Below, piece after piece: positions 11,465 through 23,192 of a DNA stretch of 32,000 nt. The first letter of the stretch is position 1. Each line of letters begins with the position of its first letter. The stretch is from NCBI RefSeq assembly GCF_000341895.1, contig NC_020409.1, positions 3,182,411 through 3,214,410 of the forward strand. Reading direction: 5' to 3'. The notes below the pieces were generated by a model, which did no database searches, had not been told where the DNA came from, and saw only the letters and a list, made by a program, of their open reading frames with translations. The position numbers and the translations under genes were made by a program. Source of the stretch: Pseudodesulfovibrio piezophilus C1TLV30. Lineage in GTDB: Bacteria > Desulfobacterota > Desulfovibrionia > Desulfovibrionales > Desulfovibrionaceae.

Positions 11465-11505
11465 CGAATAAGCTCTCTCTGTCTCTCTAGCGAGCGCCTC
11501 CAGAA

Positions 11506-11541
11506 GGTGTGGCGGGTTTTACCATACCAGCCCGCCACACC
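11506..11541 (+). terminator. Strong hairpin after the DUF4198-like gene (possible terminator or processing site; no U-tail)
   Basis: GGTGTGGCGGG / CCCGCCACACC form a perfect 11-bp stem with a 14-nt loop. No T-run follows, so intrinsic termination is uncertain. Confidence 0.35.
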
Positions 11542-11558
11542 ACGACATTTCAAAGCAG

Positions 11559-12248
11559 GTGAACATGACGAACCTCCCTCAGATGCGAGCCATTGAACTT
11601 GAGGATATTTGCGAATTCCAGGTGCTGGATGCAGTCCAGATGACGGTACACCAATTCGCGGAATCCTTGAGCCATATCATTGATGCCAAGGATCACAGTA
11701 CTCACTCCCATTCCGAGGAGGTCGCCGTCATGTCCCAAACCATTGGCCAGCAAATGGGGCTGAGCGCAAAGCAGTCGGACATTCTTCACCTTGCAGGGCA
11801 TCTGCATGATATCGGGAAGGTCGGTATTCAGGATGCCATCCTGAAGAAACGTGGACCATTGACTCGAAAGGAATTCAATATCATCAAGAAACACCCGGTC
11901 ATAGGCGCACAAATCATGGCTCCAGTCGCTCCCTTTGCCGGAAAGAACGGCATTGTAAAAATGATTCTGCACCATCATGAACGGTTTGACGGGAATGGCT
12001 ATCCGGATGGACTTCGTGCGCGGAATATTCCTCTTGGCGCTCGTATTATCGCTGTGGCGGACAGTCTTTCAGCCATGTTGCAGGACCGTCCCTATCGACG
12101 GGCCATGTTTTATGAAGAAGCGCTCCAGGAAATCTACGATTGTTCCGGTTCTCAGTTTGATCCGGTGGTTGTCAATGCCCTGTTCAGTGTGAAGGGAATT
12201 ATCAAGACCTATTTGTGTTCATTGCATAAGAATAAGGATGTTGCATGA
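11559..12248 (+). CDS. Stand-alone HD-GYP domain protein (c-di-GMP phosphodiesterase family)
   Basis: 229 aa with HSEEVA, HLHDIGKVGI and HHHERFDGNGYPDGL (HD plus GYP motifs). No receiver or sensor domain. The listed start is GTG at 11559, and an in-frame ATG lies at 11565. Confidence 0.85.
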   Translation: MNMTNLPQMRAIELEDICEFQVLDAVQMTVHQFAESLSHIIDAKDHSTHSHSEEVAVMSQTIGQQMGLSAKQSDILHLAGHLHDIGKVGIQDAILKKRGPLTRKEFNIIKKHPVIGAQIMAPVAPFAGKNGIVKMILHHHERFDGNGYPDGLRARNIPLGARIIAVADSLSAMLQDRPYRRAMFYEEALQEIYDCSGSQFDPVVVNALFSVKGIIKTYLCSLHKNKDVA

Positions 12249-12913
12249 TCATGGGGAAGAAACACCCTTTGCCTCTTTGTGAGGTCATCGTCAAACCATC
12301 CGGTTCCGGGTTGGAAACCCGTCTTGTTCTTTTGGCGGCACTCCTGACAGTGATAGTGTGTGGGGGCATCATCATGGTTCGTCATGCCACGGCTACGGTC
12401 CAGGAAGCTCCCTCATGGCAGATGAATGCATTTACTGATCTTCGCTCTGAAGAGTTGGCAACATTCAACGCCTTGTATACAGCAGCTCCCGAAATTGAGG
12501 CATTTCATGAGGATGAAGACGGGCGTTGGCCTTCGGTCACTGAACTCAGAGCCGAGTTTGTCCCTCCTTTTGTGCAGGATGCGGCATGGCAACGAAATGG
12601 TGGGTTGGATTGGGCGCGAAGTCTCATCAGTACCAGTGACAAGCATATCGCTTGCTATCTCGGAAGTCCCATGGAGCAGGATAAATCCGGCTCTTTCCTG
12701 CTGATCATGTTGCATGGACATGTCAAAAAGGAAGGGAACGCAGGGGCATCCTCGCATGTGCCTTACGAGATCTGGCTTCACGCTTCACCCGTGGCCGAAT
12801 TCCCTGATTTGGTCACGGATCAGGCACTCATCAACGCGGGCTGGCGTGTGGTGGTGGCTCGAAAAGGTGAGGATGAAATGCGGCGGACCAAAGGTGAGGG
12901 GTATATCCAATGA
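12245..12913 (+). CDS. Uncharacterised single-pass membrane protein, translationally coupled between the HD-GYP gene and the ABC transporter
   Basis: 222 aa. One TM helix (LVLLAALLTVIVCGGIIMV) followed by a soluble domain of about 160 aa with no motif I recognise. ATGA overlaps occur at both ends (12245-12248 and 12910-12913). Confidence 0.55.
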   Translation: MIMGKKHPLPLCEVIVKPSGSGLETRLVLLAALLTVIVCGGIIMVRHATATVQEAPSWQMNAFTDLRSEELATFNALYTAAPEIEAFHEDEDGRWPSVTELRAEFVPPFVQDAAWQRNGGLDWARSLISTSDKHIACYLGSPMEQDKSGSFLLIMLHGHVKKEGNAGASSHVPYEIWLHASPVAEFPDLVTDQALINAGWRVVVARKGEDEMRRTKGEGYIQ

Positions 12914-13839
12914 TCAAAAAAATGTTTTTCCCTCTGGTATACATGAGCTTTATGTTTTTGTTCATTTCGGCGGGTGTTGTTTCCGCAGGGACAACGCTTC
13001 CTCGTATCGGGGTCACTTTGCATCCGTATTACAGTTTTGTCGCGGCGATTGTCGGTAACACGGCTGAAGTGGTCCCTCTTATTGGCGAGGGGTTCAACCC
13101 GCATAATTATCGGCCGCAACCTGAAGATATCAAGCGCTCCATGACCCTGGATGCCTTGGTCGTCAATGGGATAGGTCACGATGAATTCGCTTTTGAAATA
13201 GTGGAGGCGGCGGATATGAAAGGCACGTTGCCCATCATTTTTGCCAACAAGGATGTCTCCCTGATTCCCGTGGGAGGTCATCTTGATGGTAAAAAAATCG
13301 TGAATCCGCACACTTTTGTCTCGGTGACTGCTTCAGTCCGCCAGATATATACCATCGCTCAGGGACTGAGTGAGTTGTTTCCCGAGCATGCCGATCTCTA
13401 TCGCAGGAATGCCAGACGTTATGCAGCTCGACTCAGGCGTATGAAGGCGGAATACATGGAGCGTCTCGCCATGTTGCCGAGCATGGATTTTCGATGTGCG
13501 ACCATTCACGGTGGGTATGACTATCTTTTTCAGGATTTCGGACTTCAGGTCACGGCAGTGATTGAGCCCGGACATGGTCTCAAACCTACGGCAAGCCAAC
13601 TTGCCAGGACCATTGACGAAATAAAGCGGCTTGGGGTGGACGTTATTTTCACTGAAATGGCTTTCCCTGATAAATACGTGGATACCATTCACGAAGAAAC
13701 AGGGATTCGCATCAGACATCTCTCTCATTTGACAAGCGGCGAATATAGCAAAGACGGCTTTGAAAAGGGGCTGCGGGCCAATCTGGAAGCTCTGACCAGC
13801 GCCCTGATCGAAGCTCAAAGTTCCAAGCAAGGAGGTTGA
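12910..13839 (+). CDS. Metal ABC transporter substrate-binding protein (ZnuA/TroA cluster A-I)
   Basis: 309 aa with a signal peptide. The three canonical His-containing blocks are present: TLHPYYSF, NPHNYRP and NPHTFVS. Metal specificity (Zn, Mn or Fe) cannot be determined from sequence. Confidence 0.85.
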   Translation: MIKKMFFPLVYMSFMFLFISAGVVSAGTTLPRIGVTLHPYYSFVAAIVGNTAEVVPLIGEGFNPHNYRPQPEDIKRSMTLDALVVNGIGHDEFAFEIVEAADMKGTLPIIFANKDVSLIPVGGHLDGKKIVNPHTFVSVTASVRQIYTIAQGLSELFPEHADLYRRNARRYAARLRRMKAEYMERLAMLPSMDFRCATIHGGYDYLFQDFGLQVTAVIEPGHGLKPTASQLARTIDEIKRLGVDVIFTEMAFPDKYVDTIHEETGIRIRHLSHLTSGEYSKDGFEKGLRANLEALTSALIEAQSSKQGG

Positions 13840-13840
13840 G

Positions 13841-14569
13841 ATGACAGTCACCCATATGACGGGCGGTCCCTCTGTGCACTTCGAGAATGTCGGTCTTTCA
13901 CTTGGCGGAAACACCATCCTCGACGGGGTGAATTTTACGGTGGCAGCCGGAACCATTCATTGTGTTATCGGTCCCAATGGAGGGGGGAAGACTTCACTCA
14001 TTCGGTCCCTGCTCGGTCAAATGCCCCATACTGGGGATATTCGTATCTGCTGGGGGAATGATTGGACCATGGGGTATGTGCCTCAGGCCCTTGAGTTCGA
14101 TGATTCACTCCCAATGACCGTTGCCGATTTCATGGCGATGATCGGGCAACGTCATCGTCCTGCTTTCATGGGCTTGAAACGGGATAGCCGGACTTTGGTT
14201 GAGAATGTTCTGGCTCGAGTTGACATGCTCGACAAAAGAGATCGACCTTTTGGCTCCCTGTCCGGCGGTGAACGGCAACGCGTGCTGCTGGCACAGGCCC
14301 TGATGCCTTCCCCGAAACTGCTCGTGCTGGATGAACCCGCATCCGGGTTGGACAAAGCAGGTGCTGCCGTCATGCATTCCATTGTTCAGGAATTGTCGGA
14401 CAACGGAACGACTGTCCTTATCATTCATCATGATCTTGGTATAGTTCGGGAAATAGCCCATGGGGTGACCTGCATAAATCAACACATGCTTTTCTCCGGC
14501 GATCCGCAGCAGGAATTGACCTCGGAGCGCATTTTTACCATCTTCTCCTCTTCTGCAAAGGCGGCTTGA
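13841..14569 (+). CDS. Metal ABC transporter ATP-binding protein
   Basis: Walker A GPNGGGKTS, signature LSGGERQR, Walker B LLVLDEP, H-loop IIHHD. Confidence 0.9.
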   Translation: MTVTHMTGGPSVHFENVGLSLGGNTILDGVNFTVAAGTIHCVIGPNGGGKTSLIRSLLGQMPHTGDIRICWGNDWTMGYVPQALEFDDSLPMTVADFMAMIGQRHRPAFMGLKRDSRTLVENVLARVDMLDKRDRPFGSLSGGERQRVLLAQALMPSPKLLVLDEPASGLDKAGAAVMHSIVQELSDNGTTVLIIHHDLGIVREIAHGVTCINQHMLFSGDPQQELTSERIFTIFSSSAKAA

Positions 14570-15480
14570 TTTTCATGCATTCAGTGTACGATTTTATTCG
14601 GTCTCCACTTATGGAGTGGGGCAGGGCTGGGGTATTGCCGGAATTTTTCCAATACGCTTTTGTGGTCAATGCGCTTTTGTGTGCTTTGATTGCCGGGCCG
14701 TTGCTGGGTGGGATAGGAACCATGGTCGTTTCCAAACGATTGGCTTTTTTTTCCCAGGCAGTGGGGCAGGCTGCCTTGACCGGTGTCGCCCTTGGCGTGC
14801 TTCTCGGGGAGCCTGTCACAGCTCCGTATGCCTCTCTTTTCGGTTTTTGCATTCTTTTTGCCTTGACCATGAATTATACCAGGAACCGCACGCGTATGAA
14901 GCAGGATACTGTTATCGGTGTCTTTCTCTCTATTTCGCTGGCAGTGGGTGCCTGCGTTTTGCTTTATGTCACAGCTCGGGTCAACATGCATGTCCTCGAC
15001 AATATCCTGTTCGGTTCCATTCTGACGGTCAATGACACTGATATGAATGTCCTTCTGGGTATCGGGGCCATTTGTATGGCGGTGGGGATTCCCACCTATA
15101 ATAATATGCTGCTGTCCAGTTTCAATTCCAGTCTGGCTCAGGTTCGCGGGGTCAATGCTACCCTGCACGATTATATCTTCGTGCTCATGATTACTGTGAT
15201 TACCGTAGCGTGCCTCAAGATCGTCGGCGCGGTACTGGTGGAAGCGCTTCTGATCATTCCTGCGGCTTCGGCACGGAATATCAGCCGTTCCATCAAGGGT
15301 TTTTTCGGATACAGTGTCGTTTTTGCCACCGTGAGTTGCCTGCTTGGCATCATTGTCCCCATGCAGTTTGAAATACCGGTGCCGTCCGGTGGGGCAATTA
15401 TTCTGGTCGCGTCATTCCTTTTTGCGCTTACTGCCGGAATTCGGGCTGTTTCCGGTTCCTACAAGGAGGCCTCGGCATGA
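14566..15480 (+). CDS. Metal ABC transporter permease (ZnuB/TroC type)
   Basis: 304-aa polytopic hydrophobic protein. The start overlaps the ATPase stop and the stop overlaps the next start. Confidence 0.9.
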   Translation: MIFMHSVYDFIRSPLMEWGRAGVLPEFFQYAFVVNALLCALIAGPLLGGIGTMVVSKRLAFFSQAVGQAALTGVALGVLLGEPVTAPYASLFGFCILFALTMNYTRNRTRMKQDTVIGVFLSISLAVGACVLLYVTARVNMHVLDNILFGSILTVNDTDMNVLLGIGAICMAVGIPTYNNMLLSSFNSSLAQVRGVNATLHDYIFVLMITVITVACLKIVGAVLVEALLIIPAASARNISRSIKGFFGYSVVFATVSCLLGIIVPMQFEIPVPSGGAIILVASFLFALTAGIRAVSGSYKEASA

Positions 15481-16412
15481 TCAAAAAACTGACATTGGCA
15501 CTCTTTGTTTCACTTCTTGTCGTTGTCGTCTCCAAGGCAGCAGTCCCTGATCTTCCGGCTCAGAGGAGCGAAACCATAGTCCTTGCCTCTCTTGATGTTG
15601 TGCAAGCACTTGGAGAGGCGCTGACGGAGCAGACATCCATCAGGGTTCTCAATGCCATTCCGCAGGGGTATTCAATGCAGGGGCAAAGGGCATACCTGAA
15701 GAAGCATCAGGACATCTTTTCCCAATTGGCAGAGCATGCAGCAGGGGTGCTTTCCGTGACCTCTGCCTGGAGCGATGATCCTCTTTATCAGTGGGCTCGA
15801 CGAGCCAATATCCGAATCGTGAATATTGATGTGACCAAGCCTCTTGATGGATATGGTGCGGGCGTGCCTCTGCTCCAGGTGGAGGGAGCGTATTCGCCGT
15901 ATGTCTGGCGCAGTCCCGCTAACCTGACTCGTATGGCCGTGATTGCGGCTGATGATCTATCCCGTCTGGTTCCCCATGAAGCGCAGACCATAGAGGAGAA
16001 TCTCAAGAAGTTGCAATCCGCATTGTTTCAATTGCGCAGTCGTTATGAAAACGCCTTCACCCAAATGGAGTTGGTTGATCTTGCTGCATTGACGGGTGAC
16101 TACACCTATCTCATGGATGAATTCGGCCTGGGCATTCGCTTTTATACCCTCAAACCCGAAGGACAGTGGACCGCAGACGAAGAACAAGCTCTTTCTCAAC
16201 ATCTGAGTCAATCAGGGATTGTCGGGGTCATTTGTCCATGGGAGCCGGAAGAAAAGGGACGTCAGGTTATCAGGAAAGGCGGCGCTGTCCCCATCGTGTT
16301 GAAAAAGTATGTGTCCTCACTGGGTGTGGACCCGGTTACATCTTTGGTTCGTTGGTATGACGATAATTTATCCCAGTTGCTTGGGGCGCTGAAAACTACA
16401 ACAGGAGGCTGA
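15477..16412 (+). CDS. Second ZnuA/TroA-fold binding-protein paralogue lacking the canonical His ligands
   Basis: 311 aa with a signal or anchor helix. It has the same overall block order as the first binding protein. The His blocks are replaced: LASLDVV for LHPYYSF, IPQGYSM for NPHNYRP, and SPYVWRSP for NPHTFVS. Confidence 0.65.
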   Translation: MIKKLTLALFVSLLVVVVSKAAVPDLPAQRSETIVLASLDVVQALGEALTEQTSIRVLNAIPQGYSMQGQRAYLKKHQDIFSQLAEHAAGVLSVTSAWSDDPLYQWARRANIRIVNIDVTKPLDGYGAGVPLLQVEGAYSPYVWRSPANLTRMAVIAADDLSRLVPHEAQTIEENLKKLQSALFQLRSRYENAFTQMELVDLAALTGDYTYLMDEFGLGIRFYTLKPEGQWTADEEQALSQHLSQSGIVGVICPWEPEEKGRQVIRKGGAVPIVLKKYVSSLGVDPVTSLVRWYDDNLSQLLGALKTTTGG

Positions 16413-16585
16413 TGATGGATACGGTCATTGCTCTTATCATTATTGGTGCGGCTGCTTGTTTTCTTTTTTTCAAAATGAAGGCCAAGTTTTCATCCAAGGG
16501 AGGATGCGGGTGCGGATGCGGGTGCGGTACGGAAAGTTGCTGCGATGGTGATGAGGAAAAACACTCGGTACCGCATGATGACTAA
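16412..16585 (+). CDS. Cys-rich single-TM miniprotein (FeoB-associated Cys-rich membrane protein type); too short for the ORF track
   Basis: 57 aa read by hand: MMDTVIALIIIGAAACFLFFKMKAKFSSKGGCGCGCGCGTESCCDGDEEKHSVPHDD. The ATG overlaps the TGA of the upstream gene (16410-16414). TAA lies at 16583-16585, in frame. The (GC)4 run is encoded by a 12-nt tandem GGATGCGGGTGC x2 at 16502-16525. Confidence 0.6.
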   Translation: MMDTVIALIIIGAAACFLFFKMKAKFSSKGGCGCGCGCGTESCCDGDEEKHSVPHDD

Positions 16586-16748: not shown

Positions 16749-17057
16749 ATGAACTTTGCTACAATTGCCGCGTTAAGAAAATATTTGTCGATTAAACACA
16801 GTTTGCCGGGCCGGATAAGGATCAAGTTCTCGCTTGCCATCATGTCTGATCCCGAGGCGCTCAAGCTTGCCCAGTCTCCGCCGGAGATGCCCGAAGCTGT
16901 TACGGATACGCAATTGAATTTGTTTTCTCGTACTTTATTGATTGAATATGACGCAGAGCGAGTGCCACCTGCCTTGCTTGAAGAACTGATCACAACAGAT
17001 GATGATGTGAGGGCAGCAGAAGTTGTCGAAGAATTACACCAAGCTCTCTTTGTCTAG
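16749..17057 (+). CDS. Small soluble HMA-like (Cys-less, GRIR-motif) protein
   Basis: 102 aa from ATG 16749, with SD CAGGAGGG upstream. The track start at 16671 is a TTG lying in the leader. The motif SLPGRIRIKF followed by ...TLLIEYD resembles the N-terminus of the ATPase at 18365 (SIPGRIRFES). There is no CxxC. Confidence 0.55.
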   Translation: MNFATIAALRKYLSIKHSLPGRIRIKFSLAIMSDPEALKLAQSPPEMPEAVTDTQLNLFSRTLLIEYDAERVPPALLEELITTDDDVRAAEVVEELHQALFV

Positions 17058-17083
17058 ATAATCTGGCAGAGATCCTTTTCCAG

Positions 17084-17109
17084 AAGCGCGGCGGATGCCG
17101 CGCTTTTTT
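17084..17109 (+). terminator. Rho-independent terminator
   Basis: AAGCGCGGC-ggat-GCCGCGCTT stem-loop followed by a T6 run (17104-17109). Confidence 0.8.
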
Positions 17110-17500
17110 CATACCTTTCCGGCTTGTTTCAAGTTGACTCTGATAATCGTTTTCAATAATGTCCTCTCGACCCGTATGGAATCGGAAGTGGCACTGTGTT
17201 CTTTTGTAAAGCGAGCCAAATGTCCGATTGGTGTCTTCACACAAAGAACAAAAAAGGTGTGCCGATGTCCCGAAAGTCAGAGAATACATTTGAAACCCTC
17301 CCCAGTCCTGTTGATCATCTTGTCAACGGTGTCCAAATCAAGCGAAACCCCAGAGACCGCAAGAAGTTCTTTCTGCGCTCCGGGTGTGTCCTTGTTTCCC
17401 TCTGCGGTTTGCTCGCGTGCAATTCGTTGGGCTTGAGTCTTGGGCGTGTTGTCTGCCACGGCCTCTTGATTGCTTCCCTGGGTGCCCCCTCTCGAAAGGT

Positions 17501-17537
17501 GAATTGATTTTATAACGGTTACCGTTAAAAATCATTC
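17501..17537. promoter_or_regulatory. 37-bp AT-rich palindrome (candidate Fur-family operator) ahead of the ATPase operon
   Basis: GAATTGATTTTA-TAACGGT-T-ACCGTTA-AAAATCATTC. The core 17513-17527 is a perfect 7-1-7 palindrome. The arms resemble Fur half-sites (AATCATT). It shares the 8-mer ATGAGAAT (reverse strand, 17532-17539) with the repeat at 10592. Confidence 0.45.
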
Positions 17538-17608
17538 TCATGGTTGTACCATCTTTCTACACTATGGTAGCAGTATTCATCCTGCAACGTGAAGGAGTCT
17601 TGAAGAAA

Positions 17609-17803
17609 ATGAATGAGTTGACGGAAAAATTACTATTGGTTGCTGCGGGGGCTGCAGTTGGGGCGCTCGGTTATATGGCCGTGAAACATCCTGATGAACT
17701 CAAGGAGTTCATGGGAGATGCGGCTGAGCTTGGGCAGAAATTTTTTGAGAAAACCATGGCTGACGTGGCCGATAAAATGGGTCATTCGAAGGACGCCGCT
17801 TAA
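17609..17803 (+). CDS. Small glycine-zipper membrane protein (FezA/FezC-like or YtxH-like candidate)
   Basis: 64 aa from ATG 17609, with GGAG at 17594-17597. The track start at 17540 adds an unlikely 23 aa. N-terminal helix LLLVAAGAAVGALGYMAV, then an amphipathic acidic helix (PDELKEFMGDAAELGQKFFEKTMADVADKM). Confidence 0.6.
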   Translation: MNELTEKLLLVAAGAAVGALGYMAVKHPDELKEFMGDAAELGQKFFEKTMADVADKMGHSKDAA

Positions 17804-17814
17804 AGGAAGAGACT

Positions 17815-18276
17815 ATGGCTATCAACAGAATCGCATATTTGATTGCCGGAGCTGCGCTTGGAGCTGCCGGTATGGCATTGGCCAAGGAAGGCAAAGGGGA
17901 AAACCTGCTGCAATCTCTGGTACAAGGGGGACATGGACTGACTGACAAGTTGCTTGGGACAGTGGAGACCATCAAGGAAGACGTGGAAGATTATCTGGCC
18001 GAGGCCAAGTTCGCGCATGAGCAGAAGGCGAAAGAGGCTGCGAAGCCCGCTGCAGCCGCTGCTGCCACGGCAACTGTAGCCACAACAGCTGCCAAGGCTG
18101 CCACAAAGAAGCCCACCGCAAAGAAATCGGCAGCGAAAAAAACTCCAGCCAAGAAAGCAGCACCCAAAAAGTCTGCGGCCAAGAAACCCGCTGCCAGGAA
18201 GCCTGCGGTGAAAAAGACGACGGCAAAAAAAAATAGTCCGAAGAAGACGGCGACCAAAGCTCCTACCGGCGAATAG
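17815..18276 (+). CDS. Glycine-zipper membrane protein with a histone-H1-like Lys/Ala/Pro-rich C-terminal tail
   Basis: 153 aa with SD AAGGAAGAG upstream. N-terminal helix IAYLIAGAALGAAGMALA, an amphipathic segment, then from about aa 71 a tail rich in KKP/AKK repeats (TKKPTAKKSAAKKTPAKKAAPKKSAAKKPAARKPAVKKTTAKKNSPKK). Confidence 0.7.
   Translation: MAINRIAYLIAGAALGAAGMALAKEGKGENLLQSLVQGGHGLTDKLLGTVETIKEDVEDYLAEAKFAHEQKAKEAAKPAAAAAATATVATTAAKAATKKPTAKKSAAKKTPAKKAAPKKSAAKKPAARKPAVKKTTAKKNSPKKTATKAPTGE
18025..18273 (+). repeat. Low-complexity coding repeat: (A/T/S/P)-A-K-K units forming the poly-basic tail
   Basis: Reiterated AAGAA(A/G)...GC(N) codon units. The antisense ORF 17991..18347 is its mirror artefact. 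Confidence 0.8.
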
Positions 18277-18364: not shown

Positions 18365-20503
18365 ATGAATATTGTCCGTAGCATTCCCGGTCGCATCCGT
18401 TTTGAGTCGGAATCCGAGCAGGCAGTCCTGTATATACAGGAGTATCTTCAGAAAGTCGTAGGTGATGATCTTGGCGAGATAGAGTTCAGCTACAGTCAAC
18501 GGTCAGGTCGTGGACTGGCGCTGTTTTCCCCTTGCCCGAATCTGACTGCGAGGGTGCTGGAAGCCATGGGGGCCGCTATGGCCGAGCCTCCTGTTCCGGA
18601 ACTTCCTACCTGTCGAACCGCCGCTCCAGGCGATGAGATGGCATGTACATTGCCTGCGCTTGGATCAGCCTTATATGAAGCTGAAACTATTGAGAATCCT
18701 TTTTGGATTGTTGCCAAGAAAGTGCTCAATTTTTACATGACCCGGCTGTTCATGCCTGCGACGATTCGTCCTTACTGGACAGTCTTCAGCGTTTCACCTT
18801 TGATCTTCGAGGGAGTCCGATCTTTATTCCAGCGTCAATTGAACGTTGCCGTGCTTGATGCCGCAGCCATCGGGTCTGCCCTGGCCATGCGGGACTTCAA
18901 TACTGCGGGAACCATTCATTTGTTGCTCGACATCAGTGAAACCCTGGAAGACTGGACTCGAGAGAAGTCTCGAAGTGACCTCGCTTCCTTATTTCGGGGT
19001 GATGGCAAACCCGTCTGGGTTTTACGCAAGGGTGAAGAGGTCCAGACTCCGCAGGAGAACCTTGTTTCTGGAGATTTGGTTATTGTCCGTTCCGGGGCGC
19101 GTATTCCTGTGGATGGAGTTGTTGCCGATGGTACGGCCATGGTCAACCAGGCTTCCATGACGGGAGAGCCGTTGTCTGTGAAGCGTGGACCGGGCAAGGA
19201 AGTGTATGCCGGGACAGTCGTTGAGGAAGGCAAGATCATTATTCTCTCCGAAGGAGTTGGTGATGAAACCCGATTCGCCAAAATTGCTCAGGTTATTGCT
19301 GATTCCGAAAACATGAAGGCGGACATTCACGGCCAAGCTGTGAAGTTGGCCGACAAGATTGTTCCATATTCCTTTCTGCTTTCCGGGGTGATTTTCGCAG
19401 TGACCAGGAACTGGATGCAGGCCGCAGCCGTTCTTATGGCGGATTATTCCTGTGCCATAAAACTCGCGACACCTCTTGCCGTGCGTTCGGCCATGTTGGA
19501 GTCTGCCCACTGCGGAGCGTTGATCAAAGGGGGAAAATTTATTGAGCAATTGGCTCAGGTCGATGCCATTGTGCTGGACAAGACCGGCACCCTGACCAAG
19601 GCCTCTCCTGAGGTCGTGGATATCTGCCCGGTCAATGGCTACACCCGTGAATTTATCCTGCGCAATGCCGCCTGCATGGAGGAACATTTCCCCCATCCTG
19701 TGGCAGACGCGGTTGTCAGGAAAGCCGATGAAGAAGGTTTCAATCATGATGAAAAGCATGCAGAAGTTGAATATATTCTTGCCCATGGCATAGCGACGAC
19801 GCTGGATGGTCAACGCATGATTCTCGGCAGCAGGCACTTTGTCCACGAGGATGAGGGGATTGATTTGGACGAAGCTGAGGCTCAGATCTCTCGGTGTTCC
19901 GAGAGCGGATTGTCCACACTGTATATGGCTGTCGGTGGGAAGCTCGCCGGTGTCATTGCTCTGCAAGACCCGCTCAGGGAGTCGGCCTATCGGTTCATCA
20001 GGCGGCTGGAGAACATGGGCATGAAGCGGATCATCATGCTGACCGGTGATGGAGAAGCAACGGCCAGGAATGTTGCCGCTGAATTGGATATTCAGGAATA
20101 CTATGCGCAGGTTTTGCCGGACGAAAAGACTGATCTGGTGGATTCCCTGCGAGAGGAAGGGTATACTGTGGCCATGGTGGGTGACGGTATCAATGATTCT
20201 GCCGCACTAAGTCGAGCTGATGTGGGAGTCTCCATGAAGCATGGAGCCGATATTGCCCAGGAGGCGTGTGATGTGATGCTGACAAGCGAACGCCTGGACA
20301 GTCTCATGGATGCCATGTCCCTTTCGAAGATGGTCATGCGTCGGATTAAGCGGAATTATCGATTTATTGTCGGGAGCAATACTCTTTTCATCGGTCTCGG
20401 TGTGGCAGGGATCATTTCTCCGGCCATGCTTGCCTTTTTGCATAATTCAGGAACGGTTTTGACCTGCGCTCACAGTATGCGCCCCATGCTCCCTGAACAA
20501 TAA
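18365..20503 (+). CDS. P1B-type heavy-metal ATPase with an S-C-A membrane motif (P1B-6 / FezB-like) and an N-terminal Cys-less HMA-like domain
   Basis: 712 aa. TGE (SMTGEPLSV), DKTGT (19577-19591), MLTGDGEATA and VGDGINDSAAL. The membrane helix before the P-domain reads ADYSCAIKLATPLAV, with S-C-A at 19448-19456 in place of CPC. Only two hydrophobic helices precede the actuator domain. The N-terminus SIPGRIRFESE...GLALFSP is HMA-like without CxxC. Confidence 0.9.
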   Translation: MNIVRSIPGRIRFESESEQAVLYIQEYLQKVVGDDLGEIEFSYSQRSGRGLALFSPCPNLTARVLEAMGAAMAEPPVPELPTCRTAAPGDEMACTLPALGSALYEAETIENPFWIVAKKVLNFYMTRLFMPATIRPYWTVFSVSPLIFEGVRSLFQRQLNVAVLDAAAIGSALAMRDFNTAGTIHLLLDISETLEDWTREKSRSDLASLFRGDGKPVWVLRKGEEVQTPQENLVSGDLVIVRSGARIPVDGVVADGTAMVNQASMTGEPLSVKRGPGKEVYAGTVVEEGKIIILSEGVGDETRFAKIAQVIADSENMKADIHGQAVKLADKIVPYSFLLSGVIFAVTRNWMQAAAVLMADYSCAIKLATPLAVRSAMLESAHCGALIKGGKFIEQLAQVDAIVLDKTGTLTKASPEVVDICPVNGYTREFILRNAACMEEHFPHPVADAVVRKADEEGFNHDEKHAEVEYILAHGIATTLDGQRMILGSRHFVHEDEGIDLDEAEAQISRCSESGLSTLYMAVGGKLAGVIALQDPLRESAYRFIRRLENMGMKRIIMLTGDGEATARNVAAELDIQEYYAQVLPDEKTDLVDSLREEGYTVAMVGDGINDSAALSRADVGVSMKHGADIAQEACDVMLTSERLDSLMDAMSLSKMVMRRIKRNYRFIVGSNTLFIGLGVAGIISPAMLAFLHNSGTVLTCAHSMRPMLPEQ

Positions 20504-20716
20504 GCCACCCTCGAAATTCCATGTCGGAAGTCCTCTCTGAGAGGGATGCCTGACAGATGGTGATGACCTCGTTGCGTTCTTGCCACAAAAGATCCGATCC
20601 AGATGTGTTGAAAAACATGCTGGAGCGGATCTTTTTAATGCGCTCCTCAGAGCATCTCGAATGTCTGCCGGGTCGGATTCTTCTGTGGACCGTCTTCCTT
20701 TTTCAGAAATTCCCCT

Positions 20717-20749
20717 TTGGATTGTGTCGAAATTATAATATACTTTATC
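20717..20749 (+). promoter_or_regulatory. Candidate promoter with an overlapping Fur-box-like sequence ahead of the Gly-rich/CDF genes
   Basis: TTGGAT (20717-20722), a 16-nt spacer, then TATACT (20739-20744). AATTATAATATACTTTATC (20731-20749) matches 13/19 of the classical Fur box by hand alignment. Confidence 0.35.
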
Positions 20750-20891
20750 GGTATGGAATAATTGAACTTATGAGACTTGTTGGAGAATTGATGAAGGGTG
20801 GTTCTCGTTCTCATTTTTTGCAGGGAACGGCAAATCAGAGTAGGTTACAGGGGAGTGATAACACTGTGACAGATTATCAAGGAGTTGGGTC

Positions 20892-21503
20892 ATGAAGCAA
20901 TTTCTTCCAAAGAATCCGTTTGCGGCTGCTGGTGTGGGAGCACTGGTTGGCGCAGGAATAGCCGGGTACAAAATGTGGTCATTGTATAAGGGCGGTGAAG
21001 TTTCCAAGCAGGAAGCAGTCGCTGGTGTCGTCAAGCAGAGTCTCTTGTTTGGCGGCGTTGCAGCAGCGACGACCGTGGCTGGAGGGCAGGGCGGCGGCGG
21101 TATAGGTATTGCTGCCATGTCATTAGTCGGCATGGGGGGCCGAGGAGGAGGTGGCGGTGGAATGTTGCCAGGACTTTTCTCCGCTTCCCTTGGTGGAGGT
21201 CGAGGAGGCGGTGGAGGCATGGGCGGCTCGGGCGGCGGTGGTCGCGGTGGTATGGGGGGGAATGGAGGATCCGGTGCTGGCGGCGGAGGAAGTCGTGGGA
21301 ATCAAAGCACAGGAATTCTTGATTCAATATCCAACGCCGTGAGTGGTCTTTTGGTTTCCGATGAGCCGAGCGAACAGGCGCTTGAAGAGTCGGTGGATCG
21401 AGCCTTGGAAAAAGGAACCGTTTCGGCTACCGGTCTTGACGAAGAAGGGCTTGAAAGCGATGAGGATCGTGATGAGGAATCTTCAGAGGAAGAGAAAGCT
21501 TAG
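20892..21503 (+). CDS. Glycine-zipper membrane protein with a Gly/Arg-rich disordered region and an acidic C-terminal tail
   Basis: 203 aa. N-terminal helix PFAAAGVGALVGAGIAGY and a second hydrophobic stretch SLLFGGVAAATTVAG. Residues about 64-136 are roughly 70% Gly with RGG units (GGRGGGGGGM, GGGRGGGGGMGGSGGGGRGGMGGNGGSGAGGGGSRG). Residues 157-203 are Asp/Glu/Ser-rich (DEEGLESDEDRDEESSEEEKA). Confidence 0.65.
   Translation: MKQFLPKNPFAAAGVGALVGAGIAGYKMWSLYKGGEVSKQEAVAGVVKQSLLFGGVAAATTVAGGQGGGGIGIAAMSLVGMGGRGGGGGGMLPGLFSASLGGGRGGGGGMGGSGGGGRGGMGGNGGSGAGGGGSRGNQSTGILDSISNAVSGLLVSDEPSEQALEESVDRALEKGTVSATGLDEEGLESDEDRDEESSEEEKA
21081..21299 (+). repeat. Low-complexity (GGN)n coding repeat
   Basis: GGC/GGT/GGA/GGG runs. 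They produce the mirror-image poly-Pro ORF on the minus strand (20768..21220). Confidence 0.8.
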
Positions 21504-21532: not shown

Positions 21533-22708
21533 ATGAATGAGCGTACTGTCACTGTCGAGGGTGATAACGATCTTGTCGCGGCACGGAAAAGAGCAGCTCT
21601 TTCGGTACTGCTCAACATGATACTTGCTCTGGTAAAAGGTGGTGCCGGGATTCTTTCCGGCAGTGCCGCCCTTATAGGTGATGCGGTCCACTCCGCGGCC
21701 GATGTTTTTGCATCCGGGGCTGCACTTGTCGGTCTGTGGATTGCCGGTAAAAAGCACCCGTCATTTCCTTTCGGATTATACAAGGCCGAAAATATCGCGA
21801 CGTTGGTCATTGCTTTGGCCGTGATTATGGTTGCGTACGAGATTGGCCGGGATGCGCTCATTGGTGGTGAAACCATACCGGACACTGCTCTTGCCTTGCC
21901 GGTTGCCATTGGCTCGTTGATTGTTGCCGTTGTCTTTGGGCTTTTTCAGCTTCGATGCGGGAAAAAACTTGGGTCCCCGGCCTTGATCGCCGATGCGCGG
22001 GACTATCTGGTGGATGGTGCATCCACGGGAGTGGTGATCATTGGTTTGATCGGAGCCAGTTTTGGTTTTGCTTTGGATCGATGGGCTGCCGGTGCGGTTT
22101 CACTTTTTGTGCTTTGGGCCGGTTTCGAGCTTTTGGTTGATGCGGTGCGAGATTTACTTGATGCCGCCATGCCTCGGGAGTTGGTGCACGATCTCAGTTC
22201 GCTTGTGGAAAAACAACCTTTGGTCTCACGAGTGCTCGGCTGTGTCGGGCGGCAGGCCGGTGGTCGTTATATCGCCAATCTTGATATCCTTCTGCGCACC
22301 AATGACCATCTGGTCGCTGACAGGGTGGCAGATCGTCTGGAAGTGCTGGTGAAGAAAGAGTTTCCGCGAATTGTCATGGTCCATGTGAGGACACACTTCG
22401 GACACAGTGAGTCTCATCGACGGATCACGCCTGTCATTGATCATGGTGGAGCCATGGCCGAAGGACTGGCTTCTGCCCCTTGGTTCATGGTGGAGGATTT
22501 GGATGGACAGACCAAAGCAGTTACCGAGTGCGCATTTGTCAGGAATCCTCACAGGGATGCGCCTAAACGTCGTGGACTGATGGTCGGGCAGATGCTTATG
22601 GAGCTTAAACCTGATCAGGTCATCAGGCCTGATGGACATGCCGGAACAGCTCTTGCCCTGTTGGAAGAGGCCGGAGTGGATATTCTCCGTATAGGTGAGG
22701 AAAAGTAA
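21533..22708 (+). CDS. Cation diffusion facilitator (CDF) transporter fused to a C-terminal NifX/NifB-like (FeMo-cofactor-binding family) domain
   Basis: 391 aa. CDF TM2 motif SAALIGDAVHSAAD and TM5 motif LIADARDYLVD. The cytoplasmic CDF C-domain covers LLDAAMP...IVMVHV. From about H295 (nt 22415) there is an extra module of about 95 aa (ITPVIDHGG...APWFMVEDLDGQ...FVRNPH...LKPDQVI...ALLEEAGVDILR) whose pattern resembles the dinitrogenase Fe-Mo cofactor biosynthesis (NifX/NafY/NifB-C) fold. Confidence 0.8.
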   Translation: MNERTVTVEGDNDLVAARKRAALSVLLNMILALVKGGAGILSGSAALIGDAVHSAADVFASGAALVGLWIAGKKHPSFPFGLYKAENIATLVIALAVIMVAYEIGRDALIGGETIPDTALALPVAIGSLIVAVVFGLFQLRCGKKLGSPALIADARDYLVDGASTGVVIIGLIGASFGFALDRWAAGAVSLFVLWAGFELLVDAVRDLLDAAMPRELVHDLSSLVEKQPLVSRVLGCVGRQAGGRYIANLDILLRTNDHLVADRVADRLEVLVKKEFPRIVMVHVRTHFGHSESHRRITPVIDHGGAMAEGLASAPWFMVEDLDGQTKAVTECAFVRNPHRDAPKRRGLMVGQMLMELKPDQVIRPDGHAGTALALLEEAGVDILRIGEEK

Positions 22709-22760: not shown

Positions 22761-23192
22761 CTACTTGGCGAGCGTGCGACGGTTCTGATAGATGTGCATT
22801 CCGAGCAGGCTGAGGAATGCGCTGCCCGCCACAACATGCCAGCGTTCGGAATAGTAGACGATTCCGATGGCTGCAATCAAGGATGCCGCTAACCCTCGCT
22901 TGACGTATCTGCGCGCCTTGCGGCCATTGAGTGTCTTCTGGGCACTGGCCATATTGGCCTTGACCTTGTTCATGTCGATGCCAAGGCCTTCGGCGATCTT
23001 GGTCAGAATATTCTCGGCAGTGATTTTGGTCTTGTCGAAAAGAATGAGAATGCTTCCCACACGTTTGTTGACCTGTACCTGAATCACCCCTTTGACTTCC
23101 AGCAGGGAATCTCGGACCTTGTAACCGAAATCGGCAACTTTGAGGGCCTCGTTTCTGAACCGGATACGTCCTTCTTCTGCGACTGCGTTCAT
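22761..23192 (-). CDS. Cys-less HMA-like (GRIR-motif) domain protein with an Arg-rich linker and two C-terminal TM helices
   Basis: 143 aa from ATG 23192, with SD AAGGAGAGAGAC upstream. The track start at 23225 is a GTG. Sequence reads EEGRIRFRNEALK...VKGVIQVQVNKRVGSILILFD, then RKARRYVKRG, then LAASLIAAIGIVYY and VVAGSAFLSLLGMHIY. Confidence 0.6.
   Translation of the reverse strand: MNAVAEEGRIRFRNEALKVADFGYKVRDSLLEVKGVIQVQVNKRVGSILILFDKTKITAENILTKIAEGLGIDMNKVKANMASAQKTLNGRKARRYVKRGLAASLIAAIGIVYYSERWHVVAGSAFLSLLGMHIYQNRRTLAK

What the first reader, a model, noticed from the sequence alone, without database searches (positions are those of the whole stretch)
20892..21503. Gly/Arg-rich (RGG-like) membrane protein with an acidic tail, reminiscent of biomineralisation proteins
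Seen: the protein has two hydrophobic Gly/Ala-rich segments. A stretch of about 73 aa follows that is roughly 70% Gly and punctuated by Arg and Met (GGRGGGGGGM…GGGRGGGGGMGGSGGGGRGGMGGNGGSGAGGGGSRG). The protein ends in an Asp/Glu/Ser-rich tail (SDEPSEQALEES…DEEGLESDEDRDEESSEEEKA). A Fur-box-like promoter (20717-20749) precedes the gene and the CDF gene follows 29 nt downstream. Established knowledge: magnetosome proteins such as Mms6 and MamG/MamD combine Gly/Leu-rich membrane segments with acidic, iron-binding C-termini. RGG regions drive phase separation in eukaryotes. Inference: this may be a nucleation or matrix protein for an iron-containing compartment. I saw no sequence homology to Mms6, so the parallel is compositional only.
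Basis: partly seen in the sequence, partly recalled or inferred. Interest (0 to 1): 0.75.

Follow-up and report, generated by a model that had tools for sequence, protein, structure and literature searches.

The report
MamC-like membrane protein in ferrosome cluster
This is a real gene for a small membrane protein, distantly related to the magnetosome protein MamC and carrying a floppy glycine-rich arm with an acidic end, and it sits in the gene cluster that builds iron-storage organelles (ferrosomes) in a non-magnetic sulfate reducer, which suggests the two bacterial iron organelles share a membrane building block.

Summary
The ORF 20892-21503 (+) is a real, translated gene. It is the only frame open in all 10 homologous loci, and its N-terminal domain is under strong purifying selection. 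The described composition is there, although Gly is 57-62%, not about 70%.

Residues 1-82 form a two-helix hairpin that is remotely but specifically homologous to the magnetosome membrane protein MamC (Pfam PF26373). The profile-profile match has 95% probability and scores 49.3, against a maximum of 26.6 in architecture-preserving shuffles.

The gene lies directly after fezB, a P1B-6 ATPase with DYSCAIK/HNSGT/PGRIRF motifs, inside a ferrosome (fez) cluster. The cluster matches the Pseudodesulfovibrio piezophilus entries of Grant et al. Fez linkage holds in 9 of 10 informative loci: 8 beside fezB and 1 beside a FezC-like gene only.

The family is tiny, with 13 clusters at 50% identity among 1.84 billion proteins. 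The Gly-rich linker and two short motifs recur. The acidic tail is frequent but not universal. The CDF neighbour is not conserved, and the "Fur box" is no better than chance.

Most likely this is an accessory ferrosome-membrane protein. A role in mineral nucleation is untested, and MamC topology would put the tail in the cytoplasm.

The parts
20892..21503 (+). CDS of the 203-aa MamC-like, Gly-rich, acidic-tailed membrane protein (the probable counterpart of P. piezophilus BN4_20122)
   Evidence: ORF. It has 35 homologues. It is the only frame open in all 10 loci. Codon-position mismatches are 19/5/55.
20879..20884 (+). Shine-Dalgarno-like AAGGAG, 7 nt before the ATG
   Evidence: Read directly from the sequence.
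20919..20975 (+). Hydrophobic helix 1 (residues 10-28), with the G16xxxG20 glycine zipper shared with MamC
   Evidence: Hydropathy. AF2 helix 9-33. G16 and G20 are invariant in the merged MamC/target alignment.
20976..21041 (+). Helical loop (residues 29-50), W29...G35-E-V-S-x-x-E41-A42...K48-Q49. This segment carries most of the similarity to MamC.
   Evidence: hhalign. Shuffling only the loop drops the score from 49.3 to 17.8.
21042..21137 (+). Long Gly/Ala-rich hydrophobic segment 2 (residues 51-82), equivalent to MamC TM2
   Evidence: G54, G68 and the GGG at 68-70 are conserved.
21138..21302 (+). Gly-rich (62% Gly), Arg/Met/Ser-punctuated disordered linker (residues 83-137). It contains conserved motif A, (M/A)LP(G/S/A)(M/L)(L/I/F)xxxLG, at residues 90-102 (21159-21197).
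   Evidence: Composition. pLDDT is below 50 over residues 55-139. Motif A is seen in alignment A1. In the family the composition is conserved while length and sequence vary.
21303..21356 (+). Conserved motif B, QS(S/T)x(I/L)LDSISxxVxxLL (residues 138-155), predicted amphipathic helix
   Evidence: Alignments. Found by regular expression in 27 of 35 members; two of these (P0004, P0010) look like chance matches. AF2 helix 140-155. Hydrophobic moment 0.46.
21354..21500 (+). Acidic Asp/Glu/Ser tail (residues 155-203, net charge -16)
   Evidence: It is the most acidic tail in the family. After motif B the tail is net negative in 26 of the 27 members with a motif B match.
20587..20641 (+). Terminator-like hairpin (16-nt arms, 94% complementary) plus a T-run after fezB. 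It separates the fez operon from the target's own transcription unit.
   Evidence: Equivalent hairpins follow fezB in L001 and L002.
18365..20503 (+). fezB, the ferrosome P1B-6 ATPase (DYSCAIK, HNSGT, N-terminal RSIPGRIRFESE)
   Evidence: The motif strings are identical to BN4_20121 in the supplement of Grant et al..
21533..22708 (+). CDF transporter, probably co-transcribed (29-nt gap). It is not a conserved partner.
   Evidence: Pfam Cation_efflux and TIGR01297. It is present only in the window and in L001.
22761..23192 (-). FezC-like protein (HMA_2 domain plus membrane segment, 143 aa)
   Evidence: Pfam HMA_2. It matches BN4_20124, group 3-2, and is conserved in L001, L002, L004, L006, L007 and L012-L014.
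16749..18276 (+). Upstream fez genes. These are the HMA_2 protein (16749-17057), a small conserved Cys/His membrane protein (17196-17507), a 63/87-aa GxxxG protein (17540/17609-17803), and a 153-aa GxxxG protein with a Lys/Ala/Pro tail (17815-18276).

Best explanation
The gene encodes an accessory membrane protein of the ferrosome (fez) system, built on a MamC-type anchor.

Shown:
- Residues 1-82 form a helical hairpin: a glycine-zipper helix, a loop of about 22 residues, and a long Gly/Ala-rich helix. The hairpin is homologous to the magnetosome membrane protein MamC.
- The gene sits directly beside fezB in a ferrosome cluster, and that position is conserved in related Desulfovibrionaceae.
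- It has its own transcription unit after a terminator-like hairpin.
- Residues 83-203 are predicted to be disordered. They have a conserved Gly-rich composition, two conserved short motifs and a usually acidic, variable tail.

Inferred:
- Like MamC in magnetosomes, the hairpin inserts into the organelle membrane and packs through its GxxxG faces.
- The N- and C-termini face the cytoplasm and the short loop faces the lumen.
- The Gly/Arg linker and acidic tail then form a flexible, charged brush on the cytoplasmic face of the ferrosome. Motifs A and B serve as docking or membrane-lying elements.
- The brush would tune organelle size, spacing or clustering, or concentrate Fe2+ near FezB and the CDF.
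- The protein is a modulator restricted to a small lineage, not a core ferrosome component.
For: Real gene:
-.

MamC homology:
- The closest homologues P0001-P0011 carry precomputed Pfam PF26373 'MamC'. This is the family found on the authentic MamC proteins listed (one 79-aa fragment has no Pfam entry).
- NCBIfam MamC gives a collinear hit, positions 11-74 to 11-74, E 0.024.
- hhalign of the family N-terminal domain against a MamC alignment gives 95.4% probability, E 1.7e-8, score 49.3 over 70 columns.
- Controls score far lower. Sixty full column shuffles give 13.9 +/- 3.1 (maximum 23.3) and the reversed alignment gives 15.6. Eighty shuffles that keep the TM-loop-TM architecture give 16.7 +/- 3.7 (maximum 26.6).
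- My own MamC HMM scores the target at 14.3 bits, against a maximum of 8.3 in 2000 residue shuffles.
- A merged MAFFT alignment has essentially no internal gaps, with G16, G20, G54 and G68 invariant.

Fez context:
- FezB shows the P1B-6 motifs, and the neighbours match the BN4_20117, 20119, 20120, 20121 and 20124 entries of Grant et al..
- The gene is adjacent to fezB in the window, L001, L002/L003, L004/L005, L006, L007, L012 and L014.
- It is next to a FezC-like gene in L013.

Own transcription unit:
-.

Disorder and motifs:
-.

MamC architecture and tails:
- Authentic MamCs also have variable acidic C-terminal tails.
- MamC is described as two TM helices with a helical loop (PMC7604359).
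Against: - There is no expression, localisation or proteomic evidence for this protein.
- BN4_20122 is not among the conserved fez groups in the held part of the Grant et al. supplement, which was truncated.
- The target scores only 15 bits against NCBIfam MamC, whose cut-off is 100.
- Halodesulfovibrio-type members do not individually beat shuffles against a MamC HMM.
- PF26373 could not be run on the target itself, because the local Pfam copy lacks the model.
- One homologue, P0120 in L009, has no fez genes within 8 kb.
- The topology is inferred only. Hydrophobic segment 2 is 32 residues long with a GGQGGGG break and could be re-entrant, which would put the tail in the lumen.
- The AF2 model has low confidence, mean pLDDT 48.
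Confidence: 0.6

Rival explanations
1. This is the first reader's view: a lumenal nucleation or matrix protein. The acidic tail, possibly with Arg residues binding phosphate, faces the ferrosome lumen, binds Fe2+ and seeds or templates the iron-phosphate mineral, as proposed for the acidic C-terminus of Mms6.
For: - The tail is 41% Asp/Glu with net charge -16.
- In 26 members the tail after motif B is net negative.
- Ferrosomes hold an iron-phosphate mineral (PMC13307979 abstract), which Arg and acidic residues could both engage.
- Hydrophobic segment 2 is long and interrupted by GGQGGGG, so an odd number of crossings is not excluded.
- The relative MamC affects magnetite crystals in vitro.
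Against: - Homology with MamC places the C-terminus in the cytoplasm. That topology comes from my knowledge of MamC C-terminal fusions, not from a test here.
- The tail is missing or different in about 10 of 35 members and is basic in P0117.
- Asp70 of the Glu66/Asp70 pair in MamC's loop is replaced by Gly.
- There is no Mms6-type LG repeat and no sequence similarity to Mms6.
Confidence: 0.2
2. The resemblance to MamC is convergent. On this view the protein is a lineage-specific glycine-zipper hairpin that joined the fez cluster independently, and it tells us nothing about magnetosome-ferrosome relatedness.
For: - Identity to MamC is only 20-30%.
- Single-sequence scores are weak.
- An exhaustive HMMER search with the family profile did not reach MamC.
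- The KYAWD motif that follows TM2 in MamC is absent.
- Short Gly/Ala-rich membrane hairpins are prone to convergence.
Against: - The profile-profile score is 8-11 standard deviations above shuffles that preserve composition and even the TM-loop-TM layout. Most of the signal lies in the polar loop, not in the Gly/Ala helices.
- The Pfam MamC model hits 11 family members at E <= 1e-5.
- The alignment has essentially no internal gaps and shares the GxxxG register.
- No other glycine-zipper Pfam family matches at E <= 1.
Confidence: 0.12
3. A generic small membrane or stress protein whose position next to fez genes has no functional meaning.
For: - P0120 lies between glnS and an Fe-ADH gene, with no fez genes nearby.
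- P0118 lies next to an autotransporter on a short contig.
- The target has its own transcription unit.
Against: - It is adjacent to fezB in 8 distinct loci spanning FezB identities of 64-84%.
- The linkage survives a rearrangement: the gene lies downstream of fezB in Pseudodesulfovibrio-type loci and upstream of the first fez gene in Halodesulfovibrio.
Confidence: 0.05
4. Not a gene. On this view the frame is an artefact of GC-rich GGN repeats, or the antisense Pro-rich ORF 20768..21220 is the real product.
For: - Low-complexity GGN runs keep several frames open.
- The antisense ORF of 150 aa shares third codon positions with the sense frame.
Against: - The sense frame is open in all 10 loci, and the antisense frames carry 1-15 stops in most.
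- pN is 0.15 against pS 0.84.
- There is an SD sequence at the right distance.
- The N-terminal domain and two motifs are conserved.
Confidence: 0.01

Closest known systems
MamC (Mms13/Mam12), magnetosome membrane protein of magnetotactic Pseudomonadota (Pfam PF26373; NCBIfam NF038051)
   Same: - Same architecture: a short Lys-containing N-terminus, a GxxxG helix, a helical loop of about 22 residues with G-E-(V/I)-(S/T)-x-x-E-A...K, and a long Gly/Ala-rich second helix with a GGG.
- The two align with essentially no internal gaps, and the profile-profile probability is 95%.
- Both are encoded in the gene cluster of an iron-mineral organelle.
- Many MamCs also end in a variable acidic tail.
   Different: - Identity is only 20-30%, far below the NCBIfam equivalog cut-off (15 versus 100 bits).
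- Asp70 of the magnetite-templating Glu66/Asp70 pair is Gly here.
- The KYAWD motif after TM2 is missing.
- A Gly-rich disordered linker of 55-110 residues, with two motifs, is inserted before the tail.
- The host is a non-magnetotactic Desulfovibrionaceae, and the neighbours are fez genes, not mam genes.
Ferrosome GxxxG-motif proteins (FezA and groups 2 and 5 of Grant et al., bioRxiv 10.1101/2020.01.10.902569; Nature 2022)
   Same: It is a small hydrophobic protein with a GxxxG motif, encoded next to fezB. Grant et al. note that nearly all fez clusters encode one or more such proteins.
   Different: - FezA-type proteins have one predicted helix. Examples are BN4_20119 (87 aa) and BN4_20120 (153 aa), which are also present here at 17540-18276.
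- The target has a two-helix MamC-like hairpin plus a Gly-rich linker.
- It was not found among the listed groups in the held, truncated supplement.
- It has never been shown in a ferrosome proteome.
Mms6 / MamG (Mms5) / MamD (Mms7), Leu-Gly-repeat magnetosome proteins with acidic C-termini
   Same: The resemblance is compositional only: a membrane anchor, Gly-rich sequence and an acidic C-terminus.
   Different: - There is no alternating Leu-Gly repeat (sequence).
- Neither Pfam nor NCBIfam gives any family hit for the target.
- The acidic end of Mms6 is reported to face the lumen (PMC6584501), whereas MamC-type topology puts this tail in the cytoplasm.
Eukaryotic RGG/GAR low-complexity regions
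   Same: A Gly-rich disordered segment with Arg in RGG context (four RGG tripeptides).
   Different: - The RGG units are 14-20 residues apart, not the closely spaced di- or tri-RGG arrays that define the motif. That definition is recalled from Thandapani et al. 2013 and was not checked here.
- Arg is only 7% of the segment.
- In relatives, Arg is partly replaced by Lys, Gln or Ser.
- The segment is membrane-tethered.

Membership tests
MamC family (Pfam PF26373) | Significant match to the family profile | tested here: inconclusive
   - The closest homologues P0001-P0011 carry PF26373 at E <= 1e-5, and P0111 and P0116 carry it weakly.
- The model is missing from the local Pfam copy, since authentic MamC gets no hit there. 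The target itself therefore could not be scanned.
- Surrogates: hhalign gives 95.4% probability and E 1.7e-8. My own MamC HMM gives 14.3 bits against a shuffle maximum of 8.3.
MamC family (Pfam PF26373) | Two hydrophobic helices joined by a short helical loop of about 20-25 residues | tested here: met
   Hydropathy peaks at residues 11-25 and 46-85. AF2 helices 9-33 and 39-62. Alignment to MamC with essentially no internal gaps.
MamC family (Pfam PF26373) | GxxxG in helix 1 and a GGG in helix 2, in the same register as MamC | tested here: met
   G16, G20, G54 and G68 are invariant, and G65, G69 and G70 nearly invariant, across both groups.
MamC equivalog (NCBIfam NF038051) | Score at or above the curated cut-off of 100 bits | tested here: not met
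   The target N-terminal domain scores 15.0 bits (E 0.024) and P0011 scores 16.4 bits. Authentic MamC scores 146.7 bits.
MamC equivalog (NCBIfam NF038051) | Loop acidic pair Glu66/Asp70 (i, i+4) implicated in magnetite binding | tested here: not met
   The Glu equivalent is kept as E41, which is nearly invariant. The Asp equivalent is G45, or S/H/K/C in relatives. The literature basis is PMC6584501 and PMC7604359.
MamC equivalog (NCBIfam NF038051) | Conserved KYAWD motif after helix 2 | tested here: not met
   The motif is absent. The target family continues into the Gly-rich linker.
MamC equivalog (NCBIfam NF038051) | Encoded in a magnetosome gene cluster of a magnetotactic bacterium | tested here: not met
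   The neighbours are fez genes. The CDF scores 119 and 100 bits against MamB and MamM models, whose cut-offs are 350. The hosts of homologues are Pseudodesulfovibrio, D. oxyclinae and Halodesulfovibrio.
Ferrosome (fez) cluster GxxxG proteins (Grant et al.) | Encoded in a cluster with a P1B-6 ATPase FezB (DYSCA(I/L/V)K, HNxxT, N-terminal R-rich motif) | tested here: met
   The window FezB has DYSCAIK, HNSGT and RSIPGRIRFESE, identical to BN4_20121 in the supplement. The target is adjacent to fezB in 8 distinct loci.
Ferrosome (fez) cluster GxxxG proteins (Grant et al.) | Hydrophobic region with a conserved GxxxG (or Gxxx[A/S]) motif | tested here: met
   G16-A-L-V-G20 is invariant across the family.
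Ferrosome (fez) cluster GxxxG proteins (Grant et al.) | Listed in the authors' sequence-similarity groups 2 or 5 | tested here: inconclusive
   BN4_20119 and BN4_20120 are listed. BN4_20122 was not found, but the stored supplement is truncated.
Ferrosome (fez) cluster GxxxG proteins (Grant et al.) | Physically enriched in purified ferrosomes | not testable with these tools
   This needs organelle purification and mass spectrometry. It has been done only for D. magneticus FezA/B/C.
Mms6/MamG/MamD LG-repeat proteins | Alternating Leu-Gly repeat and sequence similarity to the family | tested here: not met
   There is no LG repeat in the sequence. Pfam and NCBIfam give no family hit other than the weak MamC one.
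Fur-regulated promoter | Match to a Fur box (E. coli GATAATGATNATCATTATC or delta-proteobacterial WTGAAAATNATTTTCAW) better than background | tested here: not met
   The best matches have 6 and 5 mismatches. These are reached by 21% and 48% of random windows respectively. Better dFUR-like sites lie inside the fez operon at 17140 and 17525.

The most novel reading that the evidence does not exclude
Ferrosomes and magnetosomes, the two lipid-bounded iron-mineral organelles of bacteria, share a homologous membrane protein module, the MamC hairpin. On this reading the 'magnetosome-specific' protein MamC descends from, or was exchanged with, a ferrosome accessory protein. In the ferrosome version, a membrane-tethered Gly/Arg-rich disordered arm with an acidic end forms a condensate-like coat that sets organelle spacing or clustering, or feeds iron to FezB.
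Probability: 0.2. Interest if true: 0.8.

Novelty: new variant of a known kind. Interest (0 to 1): 0.55.

Why it matters
- From my own knowledge, not checked here, MamC is usually presented as having no relatives outside magnetotactic bacteria. Full-text searches here found no paper that links MamC to ferrosomes or describes a MamC-like protein outside magnetotactic bacteria.
- A MamC-family protein beside fezB in non-magnetic sulfate reducers is therefore a concrete, testable evolutionary and mechanistic link between the two iron organelles.
- It adds a candidate membrane component to ferrosomes. Only FezA, FezB and FezC were highly enriched in the D. magneticus ferrosome proteome.
- MamC is the standard anchor for displaying cargo on magnetosomes, so this hairpin is an obvious candidate tag for ferrosomes.
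- It is also a rare bacterial case of a membrane-tethered Gly/Arg-rich disordered region on an organelle.
- The limits are that the family is small and clade-restricted, with 13 clusters at 50% identity, and that everything beyond homology and synteny is inference.

Tried and rejected
- **Local Pfam and NCBIfam scans.** The target and its homologues gave nothing at default thresholds. The local Pfam copy lacks PF26373, since authentic MamC gets no hit there.
- **Pairwise BLASTP of target against MamC.** Not significant, E 0.74, so profiles were needed.
- **Genome-contig scan with the N-terminal alignment.** Only 2 of 44 pattern matches were confirmed, both Halodesulfovibrio. The tblastn confirmation step was probably crippled by low complexity, so this scan is not a fair census. 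The exhaustive HMM search was used instead.
- **Merged MamC plus target profile search for intermediate families.** The top 120 of 155 hits were all MamC or the target family.
- **AlphaFold2 on a 23-sequence alignment.** Mean pLDDT was 48. That is too poor for a fold search, so none was run.
- **PDB sequence search.** Only chance hits.
- **Tandem-repeat and Rfam scans of the gene and its 388-nt leader.** Nothing apart from one weak 9-nt repeat, score 33.
- **Sigma-70 promoter scan.** No site found.
- **Charge pairing with the neighbouring protein.** I tested whether the acidic tail pairs with the strongly basic tail of the neighbouring 153-aa GxxxG protein. The charges do not co-vary across loci: the neighbour's tail is +18 to +26 while most MamC-like tails are only -1 to -6, and in Halodesulfovibrio the neighbour's tail is acidic. 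Rejected as a general rule.
- **CDF as an obligate partner.** Rejected, because it is present in only 2 loci.
- **Literature access.** The Nature version of the ferrosome paper (PMC10906721) is not held. No paper mentions BN4_20120-20123.
Full report
**1. The observation**

The ORF 20892..21503 (+) exists and encodes 203 aa. An AAGGAG sits 7 nt before the ATG.

Its segments are as follows:
- Residues 1-9, with two Lys.
- A Gly/Ala-rich hydrophobic helix, residues 10-28.
- A polar loop, residues 29-50.
- A second, long Gly/Ala-rich hydrophobic segment, residues 51-82.
- A Gly-rich stretch. It is 62% Gly over residues 83-137 and 57% over 62-137, with 4 Arg and 3-5 Met.
- A short mixed segment, residues 138-154.
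- An acidic tail, residues 155-203, with 14 Glu, 6 Asp, 7 Ser and net charge -16.

The CDF gene does follow after 29 nt.

The frame is translated, judged on evolutionary evidence:
- It is the only one of six frames open in all 10 homologous loci.
- Against the Pseudodesulfovibrio profundus gene, the first 82 codons differ at codon positions 1/2/3 in 19/5/55 sites. pN is 0.15 and pS is 0.84, which is saturated.
- The 150-aa antisense Pro-rich ORF (20768..21220) shares third codon positions with the sense frame, so the position pattern alone cannot exclude it. It carries stops in every homologue and is a shadow of the GGN codons.

**2. The Fur box**

The E. coli Fur box has no match at 3 or fewer mismatches anywhere in the window.

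The Fur box of this lineage is different. It is WTGAAAATNATTTTCAW (PMC545781). The best match in the 388-nt leader has 5 mismatches, which about half of random windows reach.

Better matches to this motif lie elsewhere:
- 17140-17156 (3 mismatches) and 17525-17541 (2 mismatches), both inside the fez operon.
- 5804-5818 (1 mismatch to the core).

So the Fur claim for this gene is not supported. What the leader does contain is a 16-nt-arm hairpin followed by a T-run (20587-20641), about 85 nt after the fezB stop. Equivalent terminator-like hairpins follow fezB in P. profundus and D. oxyclinae. The target, with the CDF where present, therefore appears to be its own transcription unit. No sigma-70-type promoter, Rfam family or meaningful tandem repeat was found.

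**3. The surroundings**

The upstream gene (18365..20503) is a P1B-type ATPase. It carries DYSCAIK, HNSGT and an N-terminal RSIPGRIRFESE. Grant et al. tabulate these same motifs for FezB, the P1B-6 ATPase required for ferrosome formation in D. magneticus (bioRxiv 10.1101/2020.01.10.902569).

The motif strings and protein lengths that the supplement lists for Pseudodesulfovibrio piezophilus C1TLV30 are identical to the window's ORFs:

| Supplement entry | Listed length and motif | Listed group |
|---|---|---|
| BN4_20117 | 102 aa, SIKHSLPGRIRIKFS | 3-1 |
| BN4_20119 | 87 aa, LVAAGAAVGALGYM | 2-11 |
| BN4_20120 | 153 aa, YLIAGAALGAAGMA | 2-10 |
| BN4_20121 | 712 aa, MNIVRSIPGRIRFES | 1-1 (FezB) |
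| BN4_20124 | 143 aa, MNAVAEEGRIRFRNE | 3-2 |

The window is therefore that organism or a very close relative, and the target corresponds to BN4_20122. BN4_20122 and the CDF (BN4_20123) were not found in the held, truncated part of the supplement. No paper in the library mentions these locus tags.

The wider window is a metal-homeostasis island, with feoB, DUF4198, a ZnuABC-type transporter and a FeoB-associated Cys-rich peptide.

**4. Relatives of the target**

A word-indexed search found 23 homologues. An exhaustive HMMER search of 1.84 billion cluster representatives with the 86-residue N-terminal profile found only 13 clusters. All had E <= 4e-16, and nothing lay between that and 1e-3. The family is small and tight. 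Named members come from Pseudodesulfovibrio, Desulfovibrio oxyclinae and Halodesulfovibrio.

Alignments show the following:
- An invariant core: L5-P-K7, P9, A12-A-G14, G16, L18, G20-A-G-I23, G25, W29, G35, A42, K48-Q49, F53-G-G55, A58, T61, G65, G68-G-G70, A74, M76, G80.
- A Gly-rich linker, conserved in composition but not in length (12-90 residues where it can be delimited) or sequence. Arg is partly exchanged for Lys, Gln or Ser.
  - Motif A is (M/A)LP(G/S/A)(M/L)(L/I/F)xxxLG, residues 90-102.
  - Motif B is QS(S/T)x(I/L)LDSISxxVxxLL, residues 138-155. It is predicted helical and amphipathic.
- A tail after motif B. A regular expression finds motif B in 27 of 35 members, two of them (P0004, P0010) probably by chance. 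The tail is net negative in 26 of these, and the target's is the most acidic. About 10 members lack motif B or the acidic tail, and P0117 ends basic.

**5. Genomic context of the relatives**

| Context | Loci |
|---|---|
| Directly downstream of fezB | window, L001 (P. profundus), L002/L003 (D. oxyclinae), L012, L014 |
| First gene upstream of the fez HMA_2 gene, about 1.5-1.7 kb before fezB | three Halodesulfovibrio loci: L004/L005, L006, L007 |
| Next to a FezC-like gene, no fezB in the 7.4 kb upstream | L013 |
| No fez genes within 8 kb | L009 (P0120, the most divergent member) |
| Too short to judge | L008, L011 |

The linkage to fez thus survives a rearrangement and FezB divergence down to 64% identity. 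The CDF is present only in the window and L001, so it is not a conserved partner.

**6. What the N-terminal domain is**

The precomputed Pfam annotation of P0001-P0011 is PF26373, which the contig look-up names 'MamC'. Authentic MamC proteins retrieved with the M. magneticum Mms13 sequence carry this family. That sequence is 100% identical to P0024 over its whole length.

The local Pfam copy lacks the model, so I tested the relationship independently:
- **NCBIfam.** The MamC model NF038051 gives a weak but collinear hit, model positions 11-74 on residues 11-74, E 0.024. This is far below the equivalog cut-off.
- **Profile-profile.** hhalign of the family N-terminal alignment against a MamC alignment gives 95.4% probability, E 1.7e-8 and score 49.3 over 70 columns.
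- **Shuffle controls.**
  - Sixty full column shuffles score 13.9 +/- 3.1, maximum 23.3, and the reversed alignment scores 15.6.
  - Eighty shuffles confined within each segment, which keep the TM-loop-TM layout and per-segment composition, score 16.7 +/- 3.7, maximum 26.6.
  - Shuffling only the loop drops the score to 17.8. Shuffling only the helices leaves 31.6.
  - The signal is therefore mainly the polar loop, G-E-(V/I)-(S/T)-x-x-E-A...K, and not the Gly/Ala composition.
- **My own MamC HMM.** The target scores 14.3 bits, against a maximum of 8.3 for 2000 residue shuffles.
- **Merged alignment.** MAFFT aligns both groups with essentially no internal gaps, and G16, G20, G54 and G68 are invariant.
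- **Intermediates.** A search with the merged profile found no third group among the top 120 of 155 hits.

I conclude that this is a divergent member of the MamC superfamily, with confidence about 0.8-0.85. It is not a MamC orthologue, for four reasons:
- It fails the equivalog score.
- It lacks the KYAWD motif after helix 2.
- It keeps only the Glu of the Glu66/Asp70 pair proposed to template magnetite (PMC6584501, PMC7604359). The Asp position is Gly45.
- It is not in a magnetosome cluster.

**7. How it probably works**

Shown:
- A MamC-type hairpin.
- Conserved fez linkage.
- A disordered Gly-rich C-terminal half with two conserved motifs.
- Low AF2 confidence, mean pLDDT 48. Helices are predicted at 9-33, 39-62, 95-99, 140-155 and 161-175, and residues 55-139 are below 50.

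Inferred from MamC, using established knowledge:
- MamC has two TM helices and a helical loop taken to face the magnetosome lumen.
- C-terminal MamC fusions are displayed on the cytoplasmic surface of magnetosomes. This point is my own knowledge and was not tested here.

On that basis, the hairpin anchors the protein in the ferrosome membrane, and the 120-residue C-terminal region projects into the cytoplasm. There, a +4 Gly/Arg linker followed by a -16 tail would act as one of two things. It could be a flexible polyampholyte brush, with motifs A and B as docking or membrane-lying elements, that tunes organelle size, spacing or clustering. Or it could be a cation-collecting antenna near FezB and the CDF.

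Authentic MamCs of Magnetococcales also carry long variable acidic tails. The tail is therefore an old, loosely constrained feature of the superfamily rather than a special nucleation device.

The lumenal-nucleator reading remains possible, at about 0.2. Hydrophobic segment 2 is long and broken by GGQGGGG, and ferrosomes contain iron phosphate (PMC13307979 abstract).

**8. Novelty and verdict**

Full-text searches found no paper linking MamC to ferrosomes or describing MamC-like proteins outside magnetotactic bacteria. The Pfam model already captures some of these proteins silently.

This is a new variant of a known kind: a MamC-superfamily anchor with a new Gly-rich disordered extension, in a new organelle context.

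It rested, however, on the wrong family, an unsupported Fur box, a neighbour that is not conserved and a functional element that is not conserved.

The interest is moderate to good. The link between ferrosomes and magnetosomes is testable. The family, however, is confined to a small clade, and the function is inferred only.

Noticed in passing
window 17815-18276 (+): This is the 153-aa fez GxxxG protein (the counterpart of BN4_20120). It has an N-terminal hydrophobic helix followed by a histone-H1-like Lys/Ala/Pro-rich tail with net charge +23, which gives a weak Pfam HC2 hit. The basic tail (+18 to +26) is kept in Pseudodesulfovibrio-type loci but is acidic in Halodesulfovibrio. It is a second membrane-tethered disordered protein in the same cluster.
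   Followed up: partly
window 21533-22708 (+), C-terminal part about 22400-22705: The CDF transporter has an extension of about 100 residues beyond the usual cytoplasmic domain. The extension gives a sub-threshold hit to Nitro_FeMo-Co (PF02579, E 0.078). The CDF scores best against MamB and MamM models but far below their cut-offs.
   Followed up: partly
window 17196-17507 (+); L012 4675-4818 and 8388-8684: A small conserved fez-cluster ORF has a C-terminal motif C..L.C....G..LGRVVCHGLL. It is present in all fez loci examined and is duplicated in L012, with one copy on each side of fezB and the MamC-like gene. The overlapping ORF 17095-17436 is not the conserved one. No family is assigned.
   Followed up: partly
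window 5804-5818, 17140-17156, 17525-17541: These are the best matches in the window to the delta-proteobacterial Fur box WTGAAAATNATTTTCAW, with 1-3 mismatches. Two of them lie inside the fez operon, before the small Cys/His ORF and before the 63/87-aa GxxxG gene. Core-motif matches are enriched in the window: 9 observed against 2.25 expected.
   Followed up: partly
window 20731-20763: An imperfect palindrome, AATTATAATATAC-N7-GTATGGAATAATT, lies in the AT-rich part of the unusually long (388 nt) leader of the target gene. It is not a Fur box by either consensus and is not obviously conserved in the shorter leaders of L001 and L002. Its function is unknown.
   Followed up: partly
window 16412-16585 (+): A 57-aa peptide with a hydrophobic N-terminus and a GCGCGCGCG...CC run gives a sub-threshold match to Pfam FeoB_associated (Cys-rich membrane protein; E 2.6e-5, 24.8 bits against a cut-off of 27). 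It sits at the end of the ZnuABC-like transporter operon, just before the fez cluster.
   Followed up: no
L009 8001-8399 (metagenome contig Ga0259481_10009293): The most divergent family member, P0120 (132 aa, ending in a Gly/Arg-rich tail with no acidic end), lies between glnS and an iron-type alcohol dehydrogenase gene. There are no fez genes within 8 kb. It is the one clear exception to the fez linkage.
   Followed up: partly
window 7706-16412: Upstream of the fez cluster is a metal-uptake block. It contains feoB (7706-10210), a DUF4198 protein, an HD-domain protein, DUF6162 and a ZnuA / ABC ATPase / ABC-3 permease / second ZnuA-like set. The whole region is an iron and metal homeostasis island.
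   Followed up: no
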